A stretch of DNA of 62,295 nucleotides, counting the filler, from Basidioascus undulatus (lineage: Eukaryota): the NCBI GenBank assembly GCA_000826855.1. It is 6 parts of 6 records of this genome, joined end to end, with 100 filler letters (N's around TTAATTAATTAA, not from the genome) between each part and the next. Parts side by side here need not be neighbours in the genome. Positions count along the whole stretch, not along the records: positions 20,834 to 31,139 come from JTLS01001148.1; 5 more parts are not named here. One strand, 5' to 3'. Of this stretch, positions 10,321 to 52,037 are shown piece by piece. The notes under the pieces were generated by a model. The model was not told the DNA's origin, made no database searches, and saw nothing but the letters and a program-made list of their open reading frames with translations. The translations under genes were made by a program, and so were the position numbers. How positions within the stretch are numbered: position 1 is the first letter of the stretch; each line of letters starts with the position of its first letter.

Positions 10321-10420
10321 NNNNNNNNNNNNNNNNNNNNNNNNNNNNNNNNNNNNNNNNNNNNTTAATTAATTAANNNNNNNNNNNNNNNNNNNNNNNN
10401 NNNNNNNNNNNNNNNNNNNN
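10321..10420. other. Artificial contig spacer (N44-TTAATTAATTAA-N44)
   Basis: Exact 100-nt linker with stops in all six frames; five identical copies in the window. Confidence 0.99.
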
Positions 10421-20733: not shown

Positions 20734-20833
20734 NNNNNNNNNNNNNNNNNNNNNNNNNNNNNNNNNNNNNNNNNNNNTTAATTAATTAANNNNNNNNNNN
20801 NNNNNNNNNNNNNNNNNNNNNNNNNNNNNNNNN
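20734..20833. other. Artificial contig spacer
   Basis: N44-TTAATTAATTAA-N44. Confidence 0.99.
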
Positions 20834-22595: not shown

Positions 22596-23363
22596 ATGGA
22601 AACGCAGGGGCATCCGGATCTGATTGTCTAATGGAGCTTTGACTTGAACTTTGACTGGGTTTATGCGATGTACGTGCTGTGCGGGCAGGCAGAAGACTAC
22701 GGTGCGAGAGCTCCGATAACCGTCGACATTTCATCTTGTCGCCAGCACACATCTTCAGTTACATAGAACGGAAACCTGTTTCGAAACTTGGAAAGTCTGA
22801 ATTCTGCGACTCCGATGGGTTCATGTTCGTCACCGGCCGAACGCAATGGTGAGGTTCAAAAGACTACCGAGTTGACCAACTCGCATGACCCCGGTTCGTT
22901 TCGAAACTGAGATCTCACGCATATATGCTGATTGGGAATATGAAGGCTTATCTATTATATTTAACCCAACAGGGATCTCAACAGGTTTTGGTTGTCTTCT
23001 AAACTCCTCCGTGCGCGGCACCTGACCAGCCAGTTGGTTCGGGAGAAATGGACGAAACCTGTGAGCACGAAACAGGATTTGAAACACATACACAATTTAG
23101 TGCACCACTTCTGGATAAACTTCTTAAGCAGGAGTCATTTCTGTCCCATGCCGAGCCGTCGCTGCAAGCCTGAGCGAGAGCCAACGCAGCGGGCAGTTTG
23201 GAGCTAGCTGGCTCGCAACTGCGTCTTGGAAAAGCGAAGTTGTATCCGTGGCAGTCGTGATTTGCAATAACGCTCCATACAATAATACAGCCCAATTGTG
23301 AAGCCCTCTAGTGGTCCGTGAGCACGAACCCATTGAAAGTGCACCTGAAAGGTCAAAGCGTGA

Positions 23364-26298
23364 TCAGTACAACACCAAGAGGGAAAACCGCTGTATTCGA
23401 GCGTACTGGAACGGTGCCTCTGCAATGTAATGGTATAGTTAAATACAGCTCCTAAAATGTTCAGCGGCAGACTTACTGATCGACCCAGTCTCGTAGTTGT
23501 TGATGATGGACTGGACCGCGGTGTAGGTACCGGCTCCGAAGAAGTAGATTCTATGGGCTAGCATTCAGCATTCACGCCAACAACCAGGAGCCCGACTGCA
23601 AAGTCGCACCCTACGCCAAAAATTATAACGTTGTAAAAGAATCCAGTAATATTTCCGACGCTCTTGAAGTACTGGCCGCGGTAAAGCTCGAACCAAGCCA
23701 TGGCCCAGAACCTGTTTGGCTCCACTTCAGCACCGCAGGGGAGGCAAAACAGGAGTAATTCGACCTACACGAATCCAAACCAAGAGTCGAACAAGGAGCT
23801 CACTGTGTTCCAGTTGGGTGGTCAGTGGATGAACGCATCGAAGGGGAGACTGCGGCTGGAAGAAGACTTGCTCACTACCCTCGCGCATCACCGCGCCTCG
23901 TAAGCCAACGTCTTACGCTTGAAATGGAACGAATACGCGCAGGAGAGCAGGTCGTTGAAGAATGGAATTGCTTGTCCAATTACGTAGGCAGCGATCCAAA
24001 GTACGAGCGTAATTGCGAGCCACAACGTCCAGCCTTTGACGGTGTGTTGGCGACGGTGGATCTGAAGGAAGAAGGTCGCTACGTCAGGGACAGGTTCCCC
24101 AAGTGCAAAGGCATTCAACTCACAGATTTTTCATCCAGAATCTGGAACAAGACCACCCTTGCGGTAACAAGAGAATACACGCAGCCTGGAAGCATGCAAT
24201 GTGAGCAGGAGCACGCAGGGCGCTTAAACAAAAAAAATTACGAACCGACGACTGGAAGTCGCATATTGTCAGTGTTTAAGAAAGACACTGAATATTTAGA
24301 ACAGACTTACTGATAATAGTAGGCAGAGTCAATGCGGCCACAACTTTGGCGTAAGTCGACAGCAGAGCACCTACGCAAGAAGATCGCCTCAGGGCGGGGC
24401 CGAAATTGACCGACAGACAGAAACACATACCGTAAGCAGGAGCAGTCGTCAAGACCGTTCCAACTTTGTAATAGACTGTTTAAGCGCTTGTCAGTGAAGA
24501 TGTTGTCAGACGGCCAGCAACGTCAGACTGCGGCTTACTGACGGCACCGGCGAGGTTGAACAAGACCAGCTCAGCCGCCATACTGATGTACAGCGCCTTC
24601 GGGAAATCCTGCAATTCTGGAGCTCAGCGAAGGAATTGTGAACATGCCGCAAGGCATACCTCCGGGTTCTTCATGTCACCCACGAAACTGGGGATGAGCT
24701 GGGAACACGGGTCACTTGTCAGTCACAGAACAAGCACTCTAAACAAAATATCAGCCCGATATACCGCTTGCCCGACGAAAGTGTACCTGCACTCGGGGGT
24801 TATGATCAGGGGCAGCTCAGAAAACATTGTAAAGTTTCAACTAACGTGATGTTGACTGCGGAAGCACACCCGACGTCAGCCAACAAACCCGATGCACGGT
24901 GAAAGTGTGCCACGTACGGACGGCGTTCATGCCCTGTACGAACGTGGTTCCCTTTGGGGCCCTAGTAATAAGCGATAAAGATGAGCCAAATAGCGCATGG
25001 TCTACCACTTGAACAGTAGCAACGTACCAGACCGTCCAGGTGATTGGCTCGCCAGTCCAGCCCTGCGGATGATCCTGAACACCCGCGACTGCGATGCATT
25101 TCAGCTACAACTGTTTGGTCTCGGTGTACCCCTAGCACTTACAGATCACTAGTTAGAGAAACGGCTTGTCAGCAGTGTGATGTGTTATGCGCAGAGGGAC
25201 TGGCCAGGAACTCACTGGCCAGGGTGATGCAAATGAACATCGTTGCTGCTGCGAAAATGCCGAGCAGAGACATGTGCTGGAAATCGCGGAAAAGGGAACC
25301 TACGGGACAAAATCAGCAAGACGTAGCTTCAAAACATAGAACAATAGACTAACCGGCAAACATGATGATGGTGATCACCCCCGCAAAGACCTGCGTGCAG
25401 ACACCGGGTTGGTGAAGGGTGTTGAGGGCAACCTGGAACGACGACCGTTGAGTTCCCGCAGAGTGCTAGTATTCATTGTTTCCTTACCGCCCCCGCATTT
25501 GTGTGCAAGGCCATAATGCAACTAAAAAGAGTAGAGAGAAGGACATCAGCCCGACATGGCTCACGCCTGGTGAGAAGTATGGACCCACAGGTTGTTCAGC
25601 AGCAGGCCTATGAAGGCCGCCCACCATCCGATGCGTCGCTGTCCGAACAGGTAGTACCCACTGTATAGATAGTCAGTTTATTGCCATGCGGTCATTGACG
25701 TTTGATGGACACTCACACATCACATATATCGCGAATTTGGTGGTATTTCAGGCAGTATCGCCAGAGAACGTGCGACGTGTAGAGGGTGGTAAGGCCTGTA
25801 GAGTCGGTTCAAGTCAATAAGTTGATGACCCTTGCACCTCGTGAACCTCACGAGCTCAAAGCGGCAGGAGCACTCACCGATAAGAACGATAGTCAAGACG
25901 CCGCCAGCCATTCCAAGCACTTGGAATGAGGACTGCGCACCTCGATCGAATGAGTAAGATGTATCTTGATAAACAAATTGACCTTCTTACAGCCAGGGCC
26001 AGCAATGCAAGGACTGAAAGAGCCCAAGCTTGTCTTCAGCTAGGCACTCGCGGTCGTGCCTCACCATCACACTCACCGATGTATTCCAGCAGGAGCAATG
26101 CTGCCGTCTGTAAAAACGCGCACATGCATCAGCCTCGTTACCTAGCACTAGTGAGGGTATAAAGCACACCTGTTGCCAGGACAAAGCGCGTTCTGGGATG
26201 GCCGCCAGAACGCTTGATTCGGCGTCCTTCTCTACATGGACGCTCCCCTCAGCCCGCTCAACATCCTCCTCGTTATACTGTTTTTCGAAGAGAGTCAT
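23364..26298 (-). CDS. Aa_trans (Mtr-like neutral amino acid) permease with many short exons
   Basis: RALSWQQTAALLLLEYI, VLGMAGG, AMIFAGVQDHP, LNITYTFVGQALIPSFVGDMKNPEDFPKAL, IGQAIPFFNDLLSLMSSLFDSWFGF, GAGTYTAVQSIINNY; last exon and stop are approximate. Confidence 0.9.
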
Positions 26299-27608
26299 TG
26301 CGATCCGCGTAAGAGGTGTAGGGGACGAAAAGCAGACGACCGTCTTCGAAAGATGGGAGTAAGACGATCGCTCAGTGGTGTGTACGTATTTGAGGCACGG
26401 GGCGCGACTTCGGCGTCCCTGCGGCCCCGCACTCAATTGCTTTTTGCATATAATACACGGCAGTATAAGCGCATTACGCCATCGCAAGTGATGATGAGCA
26501 CACAATCTGTGGCGGATATCCACGCGTCGCGAGTTGTCGGAGCCACGAGCGTCAGGGAGCCAAGGCAAGCGCACGGTTATTTTGGTCCCCGATCGGAGGC
26601 GCAGCCGGAGCCCAGGGCCTGATCTTGGCTTGTCATTTCTACGTGTTGATTTGCAGCCACGCAGTCGAGTCGTAATTAACCGTCTTCTTGCTTTTCAGAC
26701 CGCTTCTTCATTGTTACAATGAGCCAGCAAATGGCAGGTCAAAGGTTTGCAGGGATGGAGGTAACACATGTTAACCAGGCGATGGGTACAAGTAACAGTG
26801 TCGGAGCAAAAGCAACGACATCCATACAAGTACTGTAATTCAATAATGAGCAGGAATCGGTTGAGGTTGGACAAAGGTTGGCGTGCTTGAACTTCTCGAT
26901 GAGGGTGACCTTAGCCTGAGAAGAAACTGGACAGTTTGGGACAGTCGACGCCTGAAGCTCTTCGAAGCCCACAGCGACGGATGCGAAGCGAACCTTCCCC
27001 CCGTATCCATCTTGTACTCACAAGATGCTTCGAGAGCATGAACATACGACTTCTAACTTATAGCGTGAAAGTTACGTATTCAGGAATTAAGAGAGCCATG
27101 TTGTTGACCTGAGCTGTCACAGATGTGTGCGGTGGCTCCTGGCCTCAAGTCGGACATGGCCTAAGTGTTGCGCTGGAGTCTTCACTTTATCCTTTGAGCA
27201 AATGTTCTCCCATTCAAAGCTGCCCGAGCTGCCGGTGGACGTATAGTGGAGATATCAATAGCGATAGTGAGGTGGTGTGCTCTTGGCTACGTCGCAACTG
27301 CTCTTCTCTCCCTAAAGCCTGGCCTTCTATTCTGACTTGGCCATGGAATCTGGTCAGGGTACCAAACGTAAAACTTGAAGAGAGTTATTGCCCCACGCAA
27401 CCGCGCACGTAGGCAATACGAAAATCCCGGAGGGTGCCCGCTGATCACTGCGCCTGCGGCCTGCCTATAAACGTGCAAGGTAGGCACTAAGCAGCTCTGA
27501 TTAGGGATTCCCTGGTCTACCGATTGAAAGTTATGAGCAAACTAAATAGCCGCAGATTCCTCCTTCATCCTGCACCGTCAGGATCAAAGGGATGTCAGTG
27601 ATTTTGCG

Positions 27609-27925
27609 GACGCTCTTGAAGTACTGGCCGCGGTAAAGCTCGAACCAGGCCATGGCCCAGAAGCAGTTTCGCTCCGCTTCAGCACCGCAGCGGAGGCACA
27701 AAAGAAGTAACTCGACCTACACGAATCCAAACCAAGAGTCTAACAAGGAGCTCACTGTGTTCCAGTTGGGTGGTGAGTGGATGGACGCATCGAAGGGGAG
27801 ACTGCGGCTGGAAGAGGACTTGCTCACTACCCTGGCGCATCACCGCGCCTCGTAAGCCAAACGTCTTACACTTGAAATGGAACGAATACGCGCAGGCCAC
27901 CAGGTCGTGGAATTGATTGTCCAAT
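27609..27925 (-). repeat. Partial direct duplicate of permease segment 23657-23980 (exons and introns)
   Basis: Colinear, highly similar sequence (GACGCTCTTGAAGTACTGGCCGCGGTAAAGCTCGAACC...TTGTCCAAT) with scattered substitutions and a short deletion near 27905. Confidence 0.95.
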
Positions 27926-28988
27926 AACCTATGTGAGCAACTCACACAGCGTCCACCGTGCCGCCAGCTGGCGCCTGATGAGCATCGTCTCCTTGTGAAT
28001 TTTCTCGAGCTCGTATGAAAAGAACGAAAATACTAAACCATGTGAGGAAGTGGTACATCAGGCAAGTCTGTTTTCGAAGAAACAAGAGAGGTGTTAAGCT
28101 TGAATGGCCGTGCGGCGGTGAGCCGGCACTCGCCAGACAGTTCATAGCAGGGTGCCACGCACGGCAGCTCAAACCCGCTGGACGTCCTGGTGCAAACCGT
28201 CAGTGGAGGGAGTAAGACAACCAAGATTCGGTACATCCTCAGCATAGCTTCCCTATGTACAGATAAGATGAAACTAAGGCACGTTCATCAGGTTCATACG
28301 ACACAATATGGGGGAAGGCTCCACTTTGACTGGGGATGTGACGCCGGGAACAATGGGTTCCGAAAGAATATGCTACTCTTCCACACCTCCAGTGCTTCTT
28401 GGGGGATGCAGAAAACCTGTCCTGACACGACGCGCACATTGCATGTCTCAGAGAGGTTACCTTGCAATTCTATGCGACGCTGTCTTGTCAAGTACGAAGC
28501 CCTCTTTTGTATAGCCTTTGCCTATGCAGAAAAAGTATACGAGCCCCAAGCGAAAGTGGCTGTTGTTTGTTCCAGCTGTTTGCCATGCGAGGTGAGGTGC
28601 GATGGCAGCCACACCAACGAGTTCAACGAAGTAAGAAGTAAGACCTCCAGCATACAAGCAGCAACCGTACCCCAGATGGCGAATTAAGCGCTAAACAGCC
28701 CTTTATACTCTCCGGCTGAGATCTCAAGGATTGCGCATTGTGTTCAGCGGACTCGCTATGTGACTGCGCATCGGGCCAGCGGCATCGCAACGTCGGACAG
28801 CCGCCTTGTGGACGCTTCGTTTTCACATGTGAAGAACGCTCCTTCGTACGGCGAGTATTCGCCTTTCCCATTCCAACACGCGTCTTGACCTCTGCCGCTC
28901 CCTGCTCTTATCGCCAAAAACGCGACCCCCAGCTCACCTCTTCCTACTCGTCTTGAACTCGACCATCTTCATCAACCCTCAAAGCACT

Positions 28989-29448
28989 ATGTGCACGAGC
29001 ATCCGCTTCGACACAGCCCACGTGAGCGGGGTCGCTTGTACTCACTCATAGCGACGCTGACGAGACTGCCCTTAGCTGCGACTGGTACGCCGTCCACTGC
29101 GTTTCTTCCCTTGGCTCTTGATGTCTCCCTGGGTAACACCACTCCTCTGTCAGACGTACCACAGATCAAGGAAGATGGCAAGGACACTGCCGTGGCGGAC
29201 GATTCACCAACCCGCATCCACCGACCCGCAGCCCCCCGAGGTCCCCAAGCAGAGCATGGTCGAGGAGATGGCCACGGGCGCTCCGACGCTGGTGGAGCAG
29301 TGCTTCTCCCGACCCCGCAAGGATCTCTCCTGACACGGGCCTCATGGTGCTTTGCATGGAGGCTCGCGAGGTGTGCCTTGCTGCTCTCGCTCCTGTGCCT
29401 TCGGGGTTGATGACGATGGTCTCGACCATGTATCCTATAGCTTATGAA
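28989..29448 (+). pseudogene. Small spliced hypothetical gene or pseudogene
   Basis: Exons 28989-29021, 29076-29084, 29154-29333 join in frame with good splice signals; a further coding-like stretch in another frame and a GTGAGT intron at ~29449 follow the stop. Confidence 0.4.
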
Positions 29449-30299
29449 GGTGAGTAATCCTCCTGCACACAGGCGCTGCGACTGGACGCTAATGTGGACA
29501 AGCTACCCGAAGTGCAAGGCCGGCGACGACTCGTCGGACCCCGACCTCGACGCGTACGCCGTTGCCAAACCCTTACAGTTGAATGACTCCCCACTTCCAC
29601 ACATTCAAACATCCTAACGTAAAATGCGGACTGTGACTTCCACCGCCTGTGCATTTTTGGCAATAACTTCAAAGAGTAGGCTTGCAATCATACCCTCGAT
29701 ATAGACATATTGGTCCTGGAAACAGGAGGGTTGGGGTACTACCTTTCATGCCGAATGTTCTCCTCGAATGTGTGAACTGGACACATGTGACGTGCGAGAC
29801 ACTGGGTCGGTTCTTTCAGGCGCTTCACAGAATAGAATTCAGGTTCAGCTTACAGGACGTGTCCTTTCCAAATTTCCCCAAAGTACTAAATGAAATGGGT
29901 GCTACCAGATGGACAAACGGAGATGAGTTTGACAGCAACACTTGACAGGCTTGCTTCTTAGAGCCTGTGGTTCACAGCTCCATGGGATGAGGCGACAGAA
30001 GCTGCAGGCATTCTAAAAAGATATCAGTATGGTATGGTATAGGTGTGGAAGCCATGGCAGTGTAGGTCCGTGCGCAGACACTCACAGTGACAAAGGTTCC
30101 GTTCATCTAAAATATGCACGGTGAACCCCGACCAGGTGACGGCTGTATAGACCTTCACCTACTTTCGGTTCTTCGTCTGTGATGACTGTTTGGATCAGTG
30201 GCTTCCAGATTTGATAGCATAGATGTGCACTATGGGCTCTTCTTTGCCCATTCCGTGTCCGTTCCTCGTACGAAATGTGCAACCGCAATTCTAAGCATG

Positions 30300-31139
30300 T
30301 ACAGCCCCGCCTGCAAAGTCCCCTGAGTAGCTTGAGATCATTATAAACTGCACAATATTCTGGTTAGCCCAATATTAAACAGTTATAATGCATGAGGACA
30401 ATACAGCTGTGTCTTCACCGTAAACAATCCAGACCGCTTAGCCGCACTCAGTGGCATTCGAATTGCTGGGAAACGTGAAAGGCAGATACTTCCACATGCA
30501 CTACCCAACAGACTAAAGATGTTCATCATCAAACCAAAGCAATGCAACAGTATGGAAAGCTTAATCACCCTGGTCAAGATACCAGACATCGCACTACTTC
30601 TCCAAGCACTTCTCCTCAAACAACATGATTTCAGCGAGACCCAGGAATCCTCCATGGTGCTGTGAAGCATACAGTGTCCTTCCTCACTGATACTGGCAAA
30701 ACAGGGGAAGTTGCAGGCACACCAAAGTGAAGTCAGTTATCAAGCAGTGGCCTGGGTCATCTTTGAATACCAGGCAGAGCTTCTCAAGATCTGGGAGTTC
30801 CTAAAGTCCATTCATCAACACTTGAGCAATGGTGAGCAAATCCTGGATGAGCTCCTGCAAAGCCAAGTTCAGTTGAAACATCCCAACCTGAAGGTCAAGT
30901 TGTGAAAGTAAAGGAACCCACATGTTGATGCAGGTGAGGGAAAACTTCCATTGTGATTACAAAGCAGCACAGCAGTGGAACAACAATGGGGAGTTGCTTG
31001 AAGAAGGACAGGTGATTGCAGGCCTCAAGGCAGTAACAGTTGAGAATAAGGTGTGTCAATGTCATGAACGTCTTAACAAATATTCAATTCTCGACAACTG
31101 TCAAACCTTGCCACCTCATTTTACGCTCTCACCCTTTCC
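30300..31139 (+). pseudogene. CpG-depleted decayed reading frame at contig end (possibly repeat-derived)
   Basis: One frame is open 30396-30905 except for TGA at 30663; CG is very rare after ~30650. Confidence 0.4.
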
Positions 31140-31239
31140 NNNNNNNNNNNNNNNNNNNNNNNNNNNNNNNNNNNNNNNNNNNNTTAATTAATTAANNNNN
31201 NNNNNNNNNNNNNNNNNNNNNNNNNNNNNNNNNNNNNNN
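31140..31239. other. Artificial contig spacer
   Basis: N44-TTAATTAATTAA-N44. Confidence 0.99.
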
Positions 31240-31640
31240 TCAGCCGCCCTCTCCCACCTCACCCTCACGCCCCCACCCTCCGTCCCCTCCCACCTCACGC
31301 GCGCCTACGCTTCACACGCGCAATACCTGCACAGCGCGTTTTACTCGCTCTGCTCCGACCCTAGCGAACTGGCCTACCTCGCCCACCGCACGTGGGGGGA
31401 CTTTATCCGGCCGTGGGAGGAGGGCGAGTCGGCGGAGGCTGGTGCGTCCTTCTTCCCCTTCCCCTTCTTCCTGTGCTTCTCCCTCTTACCTCTTCCTCCC
31501 CTTCTTTCCCCCTGACCTTCCTCCACCCCGAAGAGCCCACGCCCACGCAGCTCCAATCCCTCTCCACCACTTTCTCGCGCGCGCACGTACCGCGTCTCCT
31601 TGCCTTGCACACTCGCTCCCTTCCCCCTACCTCATTTCCG
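31240..31640 (+). CDS. Internal fragment resembling origin recognition complex subunit 5 (lid region)
   Basis: AQYLHSAFYSLCSDPSELAYLAHRTWGDFIRPW, intron 31442-~31533, then QLQSLSTTFSRAHVPRLLALHTR; resembles my recollection of the ORC5 DxxELxY...WxxFxxP segment; no ORC5 C-terminal domain follows. Confidence 0.45.
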
Positions 31641-33150
31641 GCGATTCTGGCGCGTCTATCCGCACCACCTCTTCCGGGAAGAGCTGCGTCTCCAGCAGCG
31701 AGCAGCCCTACACACCGACGCATTTCATCACTTCCTTGCCCGCGTACCCGACGTGCACGCCAGGCTCCGTCTCGGAGTGTCCTCCGAGGTCGGATAGTCT
31801 GGGCTTGGACGCCGAGTCGGGGGCACTGGAAGAGAAAGGGAAGGGCAAGAAGCGGAGCAAAGAGGGCAAGTCGAAGAATGCTAAGGCGCCGTTCAGCGTG
31901 GACGCGGTGCCTGGTCGGGAGGAAATGAAGTATGCATCGAGCCTTGAGGTCTTCGGTGAGTCTTACTGTCCGCCATTCTCCACATTTTTAATTGAGCGCT
32001 CACCAGGCTACTTTCGCAGACGAGAACGGAAACGGCGTTAAGTTCGGGTCTCTGTTTGCCTATCAGAAGACGCTGAGTGCGTCGCATCTTCACTTGCTGT
32101 TTGTGAGGCTGACTTCTTTTCTTAGTTTTTTTCATTCGGTCCGCATTGTGCGGGCAATGTCTCGACTTCATGAAGACTCTCAGTGCGTCCGCCGTTGCCC
32201 CTGATGAAATCTCCAGTCTGACCGCCCGCTTTTGCAGTCGAGCTCGACACTGCACCTCTCGAGCGTGCTGGCATCCGGATCGTGGTTCTGACCCACGCCA
32301 ACTGGAAGGTTGTCAAGGGCTATAGGGGTACGCTCGCCTGGACTTGGTGTCTCCGTGCCTGCGGATTCCGCTGACTTTAGGCTTTTTGGTACGCTGGACA
32401 GAGGCGATCAAGTGCTCGTATCCGATGTACACCGACCCCAGCAAGGAGCTCTACGTTGCCATGGGCATGACCCGTAGGACGATGGATGTTCGTTTCCACC
32501 CTTTGCTTTATTTCGCAGCTCCACGGCTGACACGGCCTGCCTACAGGGTGGTCCGAGCTGTGAACGGGGTGCATACAACCGCACTGGGTTGTTGTCGCAG
32601 GGTGTCATTGGCATCACCGTACTTTTGTTCGCATAACCCGCCTTCTGTATGATACTAATCATTCGAAATTGACTAGAATTACCTCGTGGTATGTTCCGAT
32701 CCGTCGTTGTTCTTAAAACTCGTGATACTGAACTTGTTGCGCAGCATATGCCGTTGAAGAATCCTGGCGATATCTGGCAGCTCGGTGGAGAGTTCATCCT
32801 CGGCCCTGGTAAGTCAAATGCGCCAATTGGCCTCGCGTGTCGCTGACCCCTCGCATCCGGCAGGTCTGCGCTGCTCTTACGCGCATCGGATGAGCACGCG
32901 GAGGAACCATGCCGAACCGGAGGAGTATGCGCTTTCGCTATCACAACGCTCAGCCAGTCAATCGGCTCACCCATCCTATGCTCACACCTTCAGCGTCATC
33001 CAACACGCCGGCGTCGACCTTCACGCTCCCTCCCCTGCCACGACAGTCAATCCCACGCCCTGGGAAGAATACGACGCGGACGCCGCGATCGCACTCTGGC
33101 GCGAACGCCGGCGCCAGCTCAAGGTCAGTATCGAGACCCAGCATCGCCAA

Positions 33151-41544: not shown

Positions 41545-41644
41545 NNNNNNNNNNNNNNNNNNNNNNNNNNNNNNNNNNNNNNNNNNNNTTAATTAATTAA
41601 NNNNNNNNNNNNNNNNNNNNNNNNNNNNNNNNNNNNNNNNNNNN
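41545..41644. other. Artificial contig spacer
   Basis: N44-TTAATTAATTAA-N44. Confidence 0.99.
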
Positions 41645-51937: not shown

Positions 51938-52037
51938 NNNNNNNNNNNNNNNNNNNNNNNNNNNNNNNNNNNNNNNNNNNNTTAATTAATTAANNNNNNN
52001 NNNNNNNNNNNNNNNNNNNNNNNNNNNNNNNNNNNNN
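51938..52037. other. Artificial contig spacer
   Basis: N44-TTAATTAATTAA-N44. Confidence 0.99.

What the first reader, a model, noticed from the sequence alone, without database searches (positions are those of the whole stretch)
23803..23940. A 3-nt micro-exon (TGA) between two GC-AG introns in the amino acid permease
Seen (minus strand): ...CTC TCC T | GCGCGT..GCTTAC..GGGTAG (66 nt) | TGA (23872-23874) | GCAAGT..CTGAC..CACAG (69 nt) | TG AGC TCC. Inclusion gives NDLLS-L-M-SSLFDSWFG, which matches the Mtr-family sequence as I recall it; skipping stays in frame but deletes one Met in a TM region. Both sub-introns have normal length and their own branch point, whereas a single 138-nt intron would be long here. 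Inference: an extreme micro-exon, probably spliced by ordered intron removal, and a possible one-residue alternative switch.
Basis: partly seen in the sequence, partly recalled or inferred. Interest (0 to 1): 0.8.

Follow-up and report, generated by a model that had tools for sequence, protein, structure and literature searches.

The report
Probable 3-nt exon in fungal permease
An amino-acid permease gene of an intron-crowded basidiomycete fungus very probably contains a three-base exon (TGA) between two unusual GC-AG introns; such tiny exons are already known in related fungi and no RNA data could be had to confirm it.

Summary
On the minus strand the exon ends at 23941. A 66-nt GCGCGT..TAG intron follows, then TGA (23874-23872), then a 69-nt GCAAGT..CAG intron, and the exon resumes at 23802.

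The gene (23308-26298) is a 464-aa Aa_trans permease with 26 introns. The other 24 introns are GT-AG and 51-82 nt long, so a single 138-nt intron would be 12 SD too long.

Including TGA gives NDLLS-LM-SSLFDSWF. This aligns to 66 homologues with no gap. Skipping leaves a gap in a column filled in 66 of 66, and the GT-AG alternative (GTAAGA donor) adds 7 residues in columns filled in none. LM is the commonest pair at this site (59 of 143). It lies inside a predicted membrane helix.

Relatives have a GT-AG intron exactly where the second intron sits. The first intron is seen only in this window. Its branch site and acceptor are weak.

No RNA run was listed, so inclusion, splicing order and any isoform switch remain inferred. 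Three-nt exons, and GC-AG introns beside microexons, are already published for basidiomycetes. Verdict: probably real (about 0.7), a new member of a known kind, of modest interest.

The parts
23308..26298 (-). Whole coding region of the Aa_trans (AAAP-type) amino acid permease: ATG 26298-26296, stop TAG 23310-23308, 27 exons and 26 introns in the inclusion model, 464 aa
   Evidence: My own spliced protein-to-genome alignment against P0007 and P0014. The reconstructed ORF is 464 aa and 57% identical to the Mrakia frigida protein P0007 over 477 aligned columns. P0007 hits PF01490 at 5e-37.
23941..24061 (-). 121-nt exon encoding IHRRQHTVKGW...IPFFNDLLS plus the first base (T) of the Leu codon
   Evidence: Translated alone it hits Pfam Aa_trans at E = 8.4e-4, 18.5 bits, which is below the 25.6-bit cut-off. 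It is 68% identical to the best library relatives.
23875..23940 (-). Intron 1, 66 nt, GC-AG (GCGCGT...GGGTAG), phase 1 in the Leu codon; found only in this gene and its partial duplicate
   Evidence: The donor score without position +2 is 6.58 bits (real introns average 5.24). The acceptor score is -0.39, the lowest in the gene. No sampled relative has an intron at this position.
23899..23905 (-). Best branch-site candidate of intron 1, GCTTACG (branch A at 23901, 26 nt from the 3' end); non-consensus
   Evidence: score 3.58 against mean 7.0, sd 1.8. Five of the 24 real introns also lack a purine at this position (CTCA), but none has CTTA.
23872..23874 (-). Proposed 3-nt exon TGA. It completes T|TG (Leu) and starts A|TG (Met)
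   Evidence: Including it gives a gap-free fit to 66 homologues. LM is the commonest pair at this site, 59 of 143.
23803..23871 (-). Intron 2, 69 nt, GC-AG (GCAAGT...CACAG), phase 1 in the Met codon; the position is shared with relatives
   Evidence: donor 7.34 bits, branch site ACTGACC 8.44, acceptor 5.40. Locus L018 has a 74-nt GTGAGT..CAG intron at the same codon and phase. Fragments P0004, P0005/P0080 and P0068/P0081/P0082 read into an intron at that point.
23820..23826 (-). Branch site of intron 2, ACTGACC (branch A at 23822, 19 nt from the 3' end)
23769..23802 (-). 34-nt exon: TG of the Met codon, then SSLFDSWFGF and two bases of Val
23911..23916 (-). GTAAGA, the only in-frame GT donor alternative (rival models C and E)
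   Evidence: Donor score 1.83 bits. Model C adds 7 residues in alignment columns that no homologue fills.
27596..27931 (-). Partial, degenerate duplicate of 23644-23986 (89.8% identity over 344 aligned columns). It keeps GCGCGT, TAG|TGA and GCAAGT
   Evidence: It has an 8-nt deletion in the upstream exon and has lost the acceptor of the next intron. No other part of the gene lies nearby.

Best explanation
TGA (23874-23872) is a real, normally included 3-nt exon of a functional basidiomycete amino-acid permease gene. It sits between two U2-type GC-AG introns of ordinary length (66 and 69 nt). Its bases complete a Leu codon (T|TG) and start a Met codon (A|TG), giving the family's usual ...NDLLS-LM-SSLFDSWF... 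inside a transmembrane helix.

Inferred history: the downstream intron is the older one, because relatives have a GT-AG intron at exactly that position. The upstream intron was gained 3 nt before it in this lineage, which stranded three exon bases.

Inferred mechanism: the 3' splice site of intron 1 and the 5' splice site of intron 2 are only 3 nt apart, so the two introns must be removed one after the other. Intron 2 has the strong branch site and acceptor, and its donor lies about 50 nt from that branch site, whereas the upstream donor lies about 118 nt away. Intron 2 is therefore probably removed first. Once it is gone, TAG is the only YAG left after intron 1's branch site, and TGA is retained.

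What is shown: the sequence, the gene model, homologue spacing and intron-position sharing. What is inferred: inclusion in mRNA, the order of removal and the history.
For: 1. Sequence and coordinates are exact.

2. Gene model: 26 introns and a 464-aa open frame. The other 24 introns are all GT-AG and 51-82 nt long (mean 60.9, sd 6.2). The lengths 66 and 69 fit this range (z = 0.8 and 1.3); 138 does not (z = 12.4).

3. Protein fit. With all small exons included, the protein aligns to 66 homologues with no gap in any column that at least 90% of them fill. Skipping TGA leaves a gap in a column filled in 66 of 66.

4. Homologue spacing. There are always two residues between ..LL[S/A/G] and SSLF. 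This held in 42 of 42 proteins matching the strict motif, and in 47 of 56 motif occurrences in the loci by the strict motif; 8 of the other 9 also show two residues by eye, and the ninth (L018) has an intron there. It also held in 92 of 92 informative proteins out of 97 examined. No homologue was one residue short.

5. TGA encodes exactly the modal pair: LM in 59 and LI in 58 of 143 proteins.

6. The site lies within helix 384-411 of the AlphaFold model of homologue P0007 (mean pLDDT 90.6).

7. Both GC donors match the gene's donor profile apart from position +2: 6.58 and 7.34 bits, against a mean of 5.24 for real introns. They rank in the top 0.7% and 0.2% of 456 other G[TC] sites in the gene region.

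8. Intron 2's position and phase equal those of a GT-AG intron in L018. Six read-through fragments break at the same point. The Naganishia cerealis protein P0096 lacks 10 residues spanning the site, which I read as a missed small exon.

9. Chance: 0.2% of 200,000 shuffles give a comparable solution.

10. The same gene has other very small exons of 6, 10, 6 and 13 nt. The 6-nt exon (25143-25148) likewise splits a 127-nt interval into 67 + 54 nt and removes a 2-residue gap.

11. Precedent in print. Coprinopsis cinerea has 27 exons of 3 nt (PMC12230235, passages). GC-AG introns flank microexons in basidiomycete yeast bglA genes (PMC9142197, passages).

12. The partial duplicate keeps both GC donors and TAG|TGA, so they are not read errors and they predate the duplication.
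Against: No transcript evidence was available.

Intron 1's 3' half is weak. Its best branch site scores 3.58, about 2 sd below the mean. Its acceptor, GCGAGGGTAG, scores -0.39, below all 24 real introns (minimum 1.52) and no better than 61% of 145 unused AGs.

My own spliced aligner, with its default penalties (GC intron 16, gap 6), chose the single 138-nt intron plus a one-residue gap against both guide proteins. The choice depends on those penalties.

Two adjacent GC-AG introns are a priori rare. GC-AG is reported at under 1% of introns in model organisms and GT-AG at 98.7% in fungi (PMC7072748, passages).

No sampled relative has the same arrangement, so there is no conservation test of the microexon itself. 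The closest homologue is only 57-58% identical.
Confidence: 0.72

Rival explanations
1. One 138-nt GC-AG intron (GCGCGT at 23940 to CACAG at 23803) is removed as a unit. TGA|GCAAGT is then a bypassed relic of the ancestral exon end and donor, and the permease is one residue short (NDLLS-L-SSLF).
For: The product stays in frame. It uses the strong branch site and acceptor and avoids intron 1's weak branch site and weak acceptor. My spliced aligner preferred it at default penalties. The T-to-C change at +2 of the old donor could be early decay.
Against: The intron would be 12 sd longer than the gene's other 24 introns. The deletion falls in a column filled in 66 of 66 homologues, inside a membrane helix. 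No homologue is one residue short. The inserted 66 nt end in YAG exactly at the TGA, which this model does not require (about 1 in 32 by chance, my own estimate). GCAAGT is closer to the branch site than GCGCGT and scores higher, so it should win the competition for it (inference).
Confidence: 0.13
2. A canonical GT donor is used instead: GTAAGA at 23916. It is joined either to CACAG (114-nt intron, model C) or to GGGTAG (42-nt intron, model E, followed by TGA and intron 2). Either way the exon is extended by CAYSFHFK.
For: Both versions stay in frame and avoid at least one GC donor. The open frame does run through this stretch.
Against: The donor scores only 1.83 bits. Lengths of 114 and 42 nt both fall outside the 51-82 nt range. 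Model C puts 7 residues, including His and Lys, into alignment columns filled by 0 of 66 homologues, in the middle of a helix. BLAST scores against the three best homologues are lower than for the inclusion model.
Confidence: 0.04
3. Both forms are made in regulated proportions, giving a one-residue (Met) isoform switch.
For: Both products are in frame, so nonsense-mediated decay would not remove the skipped form. The weak 3' half of intron 1 could make the choice tunable.
Against: No data bear on this. A one-residue shift in a helix that never varies in length among homologues looks more like a defect than a regulated alternative.
Confidence: 0.05
4. The site is a lesion. The 66-nt insertion is poorly spliced or not spliced, and the gene is on its way to being a pseudogene.
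For: Intron 1 has the weakest acceptor in the gene and a non-consensus branch site. Retaining it gives a stop after 19 codons (read). A decayed partial copy lies 4 kb away.
Against: All 27 exons give an uninterrupted 464-aa frame that fits 66 homologues without gaps. The arrangement predates a duplication that is now about 10% diverged, yet the gene is still intact.
Confidence: 0.06

Closest known systems
3-nt and smaller internal exons of Coprinopsis cinerea (long-read annotation, PMC12230235; passages read)
   Same: A basidiomycete with intron-dense genes and internal exons of 3 nt or less: 27 exons of 3 nt in 26 genes, 57 of 2 nt and 13 of 1 nt. Automatic annotation misses them.
   Different: Those are backed by full-length transcripts; this one is not. 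The passages I read do not say whether any is bracketed by two GC-AG introns. Omitting this one does not break the frame.
One-nucleotide exon of Fusarium CYP621A genes (PMC12940212; abstract and passages read)
   Same: The reasoning is the same: an intron more than twice the median length (139 nt against 56) hides a tiny exon that restores a conserved motif.
   Different: That exon is 1 nt and restores the frame, its borders are AG and GT, and it is confirmed by read archives and conserved across orthologues. Here the exon is 3 nt, it is neutral to the frame, both donors are GC, and no orthologue with the same structure was found.
GC-AG introns flanking microexons in bglA genes of basidiomycete yeasts (Hamamotoa singularis, Rhodotorula minuta; PMC9142197; passages read)
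   Same: Basidiomycete genes with about 20 introns of about 60 nt (59 +/- 8 and 60 +/- 4), several microexons, and a GC-AG intron next to a microexon. The intron statistics are the same as in this gene (60.9 +/- 6.2).
   Different: There is one GC-AG intron per gene there, and the smallest exons are 5-18 nt. Here both introns around a 3-nt exon are GC-AG.
Spliceosomal twin introns (stwintrons) of fungi (search listing and abstracts only)
   Same: Two adjacent U2-type splicing reactions that must occur one after the other within a single intervening stretch.
   Different: In a stwintron, removing the internal intron rebuilds a splice signal of the external one, and nothing is left between them. 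By inspection, no nested GT/GC..AG removal here rebuilds a donor, branch site or acceptor in frame, and three bases stay in the mRNA.
Neutral amino acid permeases of the Aa_trans / AAAP family (Pfam PF01490). The link to the Neurospora mtr type is my recollection; several hits are named 'neutral amino acid permease'
   Same: 57% identity over the full length to the Mrakia frigida member, with conserved motifs such as IPFFNDLLSL[IM]SSLFDSWFG.
   Different: This gene has far more introns (26) than the relatives examined (10-18), and almost none are at shared positions.

Membership tests
Aa_trans amino acid transporter (Pfam PF01490) | Match to the family profile above the curated cut-off | tested here: met
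   The 40-aa exon alone scores 18.5 bits, below the 25.6-bit cut-off. The spliced 464-aa product is 57% identical over 477 columns to P0007. P0007 scores 128 bits, E = 5e-37, over profile positions 2-408 of 410. Membership is therefore indirect, through homologues. The joined protein itself was not scanned.
U2-type GC-AG intron | GC at +1/+2 with otherwise consensus-like donor positions | tested here: met
   Scores without +2 are 6.58 bits (GCGCGT) and 7.34 bits (GCAAGT), against a mean of 5.24 for the gene's 24 GT introns. They rank in the top 0.7% and 0.2% of 456 other G[TC] sites.
U2-type GC-AG intron | Branch site CTRAY 8-45 nt upstream of a YAG acceptor, and a length typical for the genome | tested here: inconclusive
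   Intron 2 meets it: ACTGACC 19 nt upstream, CAG acceptor, 69 nt. Intron 1 has only CTTAC (3.58 bits) and a purine-rich TAG acceptor (-0.39 bits), although its 66-nt length is typical.
Internal microexon (3 nt or less) | The bases are present in mature mRNA between two spliced junctions | not testable with these tools
   No RNA run was listed and no genome is held.
Internal microexon (3 nt or less) | Inclusion is needed to reproduce the conserved protein sequence and length | tested here: met
   Inclusion gives no gap against 66 homologues. Skipping leaves a gap in a column filled in 66 of 66. The encoded LM is the modal pair.
Stwintron (spliceosomal twin intron) | Excision of an internal intron regenerates a canonical splice signal of an external intron, and no exon bases remain between them | tested here: not met
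   I inspected all in-frame GT/GC..AG combinations. None rebuilds a donor, branch site or acceptor. The solution that fits the homologues keeps 3 nt.
Introner or duplicated-intron origin of intron 1 | Significant sequence similarity to other introns | tested here: not met
   The local alignment score of intron 1 against intron 2 is 12, reached by 48% of 2000 shuffles. The pair ranks about 213th of 325 intron pairs. In the window the gene region matches only the partial duplicate.

The most novel reading that the evidence does not exclude
GC donors may be favoured at introns that bracket ultra-short exons in basidiomycetes. When a 3' splice site and the next 5' splice site are only 3 nt apart, a weakened U1 contact (C at +2) could be what allows strictly sequential, downstream-first removal without exon skipping.

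In this gene the only 2 GC donors among 26 introns are the two around the 3-nt exon. By my own calculation, two randomly placed GC donors would form this particular pair 1 time in 325, though the test is post hoc. A published note reports GC-AG introns next to microexons in two basidiomycete yeast bglA genes (PMC9142197).

If this is general, GC-AG next to an over-long intron would be a usable signal for finding hidden microexons.
Probability: 0.12. Interest if true: 0.6.

Novelty: new member of a known kind. Interest (0 to 1): 0.38.

Why it matters
If the 3-nt exon is real, automatic annotation of this genome will either delete a residue from a transmembrane helix or mis-model the gene. The Naganishia cerealis relative P0096 lacks 10 residues spanning this site, which I read as a missed small exon.

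The locus would also be a compact natural substrate for studying how a spliceosome that works by intron definition handles a 3' and a 5' splice site only 3 nt apart, with both donors GC.

It may also show how a microexon is born, by gain of an intron 3 nt from an older one.

It does not open a new category. Exons of 1-3 nt are documented in fungi.

Tried and rejected
RNA evidence: no RNA holder was listed for 23300-25500, so read laying could not be used. No whole genome is held for this window.

Single-intron solutions that would keep the extra codon: moving the donor and acceptor by 0-3 nt gives GC-CA, CG-AC, GC-CA or CG-AG borders. None is plausible (read).

Stwintron-type nesting was rejected by inspection.

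Origin of intron 1 as a duplicate of intron 2, which would have explained two GC donors, was rejected. Their similarity is no better than that of shuffled sequence.

RNA structure that might bring the sites together or mask them: folds of intron 1, of intron 2 and of the whole 138 nt are no more stable than shuffles, with z = -0.10, -0.18 and +1.40.

A window-wide estimate of GC-AG use with my splice-site profiles was uninformative. Candidates with GC were as frequent as the GA and GG controls: at a total score of at least 18 there were 25 with C, 23 with A, 25 with G and 48 with T. That scan did reveal the partial duplicate.

My spliced aligner cannot decide between inclusion and skipping, because the outcome depends on the chosen gap and intron penalties.

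The first, broad alignment (A1) was not accepted as a query for the metagenome scan. A trimmed alignment of six sequences (A2) was used instead.

Closer relatives were sought without success. The best library hit to the 40-aa exon is 68% identical. None of the 57 metagenome loci has the two-intron arrangement.
Full report
**Observation.**
- The exon ends ...AAC GAC CTG CTC TCC T at 23941.
- GCGCGT...GGGTAG occupies 23940-23875 (66 nt).
- TGA is at 23874-23872.
- GCAAGT...CACAG occupies 23871-23803 (69 nt).
- The exon resumes TG AGC TCC TTG TTC GAC at 23802.

**The gene.** The 40-aa exon upstream gives a weak Pfam Aa_trans match (E = 8.4e-4, below the cut-off). It also finds fungal Aa_trans proteins.

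I wrote a protein-to-genome aligner that allows GT/GC-AG introns in all phases, and ran it with two full-length relatives as guides: P0007 from Mrakia frigida and P0014 from Mixia osmundae (names; alignments). The result is a gene from ATG 26298 to TAG 23308.
- In the inclusion model it has 27 exons and 26 introns and encodes 464 aa.
- It is 57% identical to P0007 over 477 columns, and P0007 matches PF01490 at 5e-37.
- Named relatives are all basidiomycetes: Mrakia, Phaffia, Naganishia, Leucosporidium, Rhodotorula and others, some called 'neutral amino acid permease'. None is closer than about 58%.
- The source is therefore a basidiomycete lineage not closely represented in the libraries. This is an inference.

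**Intron statistics.** The other 24 introns are all GT-AG and 51-82 nt long, with mean 60.9 and sd 6.2. A single 138-nt intron would lie 12.4 sd above the mean. The lengths 66 and 69 are ordinary.

There is one more over-long interval in the gene, 127 nt at 25215-25089. It behaves the same way. It splits into 67 + 54 nt around a 6-nt exon, TGATCT (25148-25143). The Mixia-guided alignment chose that split, and it removes a two-residue gap. Further exons of 10, 6 and 13 nt occur. This gene therefore routinely depends on very small exons.

**Which splice model fits the protein family.** I compared four models.
- Inclusion gives NDLLS-LM-SSLFDSWFGF.
- Skipping gives NDLLS-L-SSLF.
- The only in-frame GT donor, GTAAGA at 23916-23911, gives NDLLS-CAYSFHFK-L(M)-SSLF, with an intron of 114 or 42 nt.
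- Single introns shifted by 0-3 nt to keep the codon would need GC-CA, CG-AC or CG-AG borders.

When added to an alignment of 66 full-length homologues (A4), the inclusion product has no gap in any column that at least 90% of them fill. The skipping product has a gap in a column filled in 66 of 66. The GTAAGA model places 7 residues in columns filled in none.

Motif counts agree.
- In the first protein set there were 59 motif occurrences. 42 matched a strict downstream motif, all at a spacing of two residues.
- Of the other 17, 10 show L[I/M]SSLF and then run into a later intron, 1 is ambiguous, and 6 run into an intron right at the site.
- In the 57 metagenome loci there were 56 motif occurrences. 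47 had strict spacing two. Eight more show spacing two by eye. L018 has an intron there. L002 has its intron five codons upstream and reads LLSLISSLFDSWF.
- Of 97 further proteins, 85 matched strictly and 7 more by eye or by local alignment, making 92 of 92 informative. The other five are truncated or mis-modelled at that point.
- No sequence is one residue short.

The pair encoded with TGA, Leu-Met, is the commonest one: LM in 59 and LI in 58 of 143.

In an AlphaFold model of P0007 (mean pLDDT 90.6) the pair (residues 390-391) lies inside helix 384-411. A one-residue deletion there would rotate the conserved SSLFDSWFGF face; that consequence is an inference.

**Splice signals.** I built profiles from the gene's 24 GT-AG introns.
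- Ignoring position +2, GCGCGT scores 6.58 bits and GCAAGT 7.34 bits. The leave-one-out mean for real donors is 5.24. Only 0.7% and 0.2% of 456 other G[TC] sites in the gene region score as high.
- Intron 2 has a canonical branch site (ACTGACC, 8.44 bits, 19 nt upstream) and a normal acceptor (5.40 bits).
- Intron 1 is weaker. Its best branch candidate is GCTTACG (3.58 bits against a mean of 7.0, sd 1.8).
- Its acceptor, GCGAGGGTAG, scores -0.39, below every real acceptor (minimum 1.52) and no better than 61% of 145 unused AGs.
- GTAAGA scores 1.83.

Shuffling the interior of the 138 nt gave a comparable 3-nt-exon solution in 0.2% of 200,000 trials (donor at least 5 bits, hydrophobic residues, both halves at least 45 nt). 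At the loosest threshold the figure was 1.9%.

**Relatives and history.** Locus L018 has a 74-nt GTGAGT...CAG intron at exactly the codon and phase of intron 2 (..GTC A|gt...ag|TC AGT TCG CTC TTC). Six read-through fragments (P0004, P0005/P0080, P0068/P0081/P0082) translate L/V-S-[G/E/K].. at that point, as expected for ..TTG A|GTGGGT, A|GTGAGT and A|GTAAGT. The Naganishia cerealis protein P0096 lacks 10 residues spanning the site, which I read as a missed small exon.

Otherwise intron positions in this family are highly fluid. In P0007 coordinates, none of the window's 25 positions (single-intron model) coincides exactly with any of the 18, 10 and 10 positions in L002, L018 and L004. Positions in the poorly aligned N-terminal parts are unreliable.

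Intron 2 is thus the one shared position, and nothing like intron 1 was seen elsewhere. The simplest history is that a 66-nt intron was gained 3 nt upstream of an older intron (inference). Intron 1 is not a copy of intron 2 or of any other intron in the gene.

A 336-nt partial duplicate of this part of the gene lies at 27596-27931 (89.8% identity).
- It keeps GCGCGT, TAG|TGA and GCAAGT.
- It has an 8-nt exon deletion and has lost the next acceptor. No other part of the gene is nearby.
- It shows that both GC donors are real bases and that the arrangement is older than that duplication.

**Mechanism (inferred).** The 3' splice site of intron 1 and the donor of intron 2 are 3 nt apart, so both cannot be engaged at once and removal must be sequential.

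The two donors compete for the strong branch site ACTGAC. GCAAGT is about 50 nt from it and has the higher score. GCGCGT is about 118 nt away, far beyond the spacing seen in any other intron of the gene. Intron 2 should therefore usually go first.

After that, the only YAG downstream of CTTAC is the TAG at 23877-23875, and TGA stays in the mRNA. On this view the weak 3' half of intron 1 threatens efficiency (retention, which gives a stop after 19 codons) rather than inclusion.

None of this is shown. No RNA run was listed, and my aligner picked skipping at its default penalties, a choice that depends on those penalties.

**Comparison with what is known.**
- Long-read annotation of Coprinopsis cinerea reports 27 exons of 3 nt, 57 of 2 nt and 13 of 1 nt (PMC12230235, passages).
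- A 1-nt exon in Fusarium CYP621A was inferred from a 139-nt intron and confirmed with reads (PMC12940212, abstract and passages).
- Basidiomycete yeast bglA genes have about 20 introns of about 60 nt, several microexons, and a GC-AG intron flanking a microexon in two species (PMC9142197, passages).
- GC-AG is reported at under 1% of introns in model organisms, and GT-AG at 98.7% in fungi (PMC7072748, passages).
- My searches turned up no case of a 3-nt exon bracketed by two GC-AG introns. They cover open-access text only, and I did not open supplementary tables.
- It is not a stwintron. No nested excision rebuilds a splice signal, and three bases remain (inspection; stwintron papers seen as listing and abstracts only).

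**Verdict.** The microexon reading is the best supported (about 0.72), but only on comparative grounds. It is a new member of a known kind. The double GC-AG bracket and the apparent recent birth next to an older intron are its points of interest. Ordered removal and an isoform switch are untested.

Noticed in passing
window 25143-25148 (minus strand), between introns 25215-25149 and 25142-25089: A second hidden microexon of 6 nt (TGATCT) between two GT-AG introns of 67 and 54 nt. If it is skipped, the interval is 127 nt and the protein loses two residues (MI) in columns that at least 90% of 66 homologues fill.
   Followed up: partly
window 24846-24855, 24246-24251 and 23407-23419 (minus strand): Further very small exons of 10, 6 and 13 nt in the same gene. 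Overall there are 26 introns in a 1395-nt coding sequence, far denser than the 10-18 introns in the relatives examined.
   Followed up: partly
window 27596-27931 (minus strand): A partial duplicate (89.8% identity) of 23644-23986, lying about 4 kb upstream in a stretch with lower G+C and no clear genes. It keeps both GC donors and TAG|TGA, but has an 8-nt exon deletion and has lost the next acceptor. It is probably a pseudogene fragment.
   Followed up: partly
whole gene, compared with loci L002, L004 and L018: Intron positions in this permease family turn over almost completely between basidiomycete lineages. In P0007 coordinates, 0 of the window's 25 positions coincide exactly with the 18, 10 and 10 positions in three relatives. 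The only shared position is that of intron 2.
   Followed up: partly
protein P0096 (Naganishia cerealis) and P0126 (Naganishia friedmannii): These database proteins lack or garble the ..VPFFNDLLAL.. stretch. This is probably because a roughly 31-nt exon between two introns was missed in annotation; the read-through fragments P0068/P0081/P0082 show such an exon.
   Followed up: no
window 10321-10420, 20734-20833, 31140-31239, 41545-41644 and 51938-52037: Five regularly spaced pairs of 44-nt N runs (masked stretches). None touches the finding.
   Followed up: no
window 24001-32000: G+C drops to 0.52 here, against 0.56-0.63 in the rest of the window. The stretch covers the intron-rich permease gene and the apparently gene-poor region upstream of it.
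   Followed up: no
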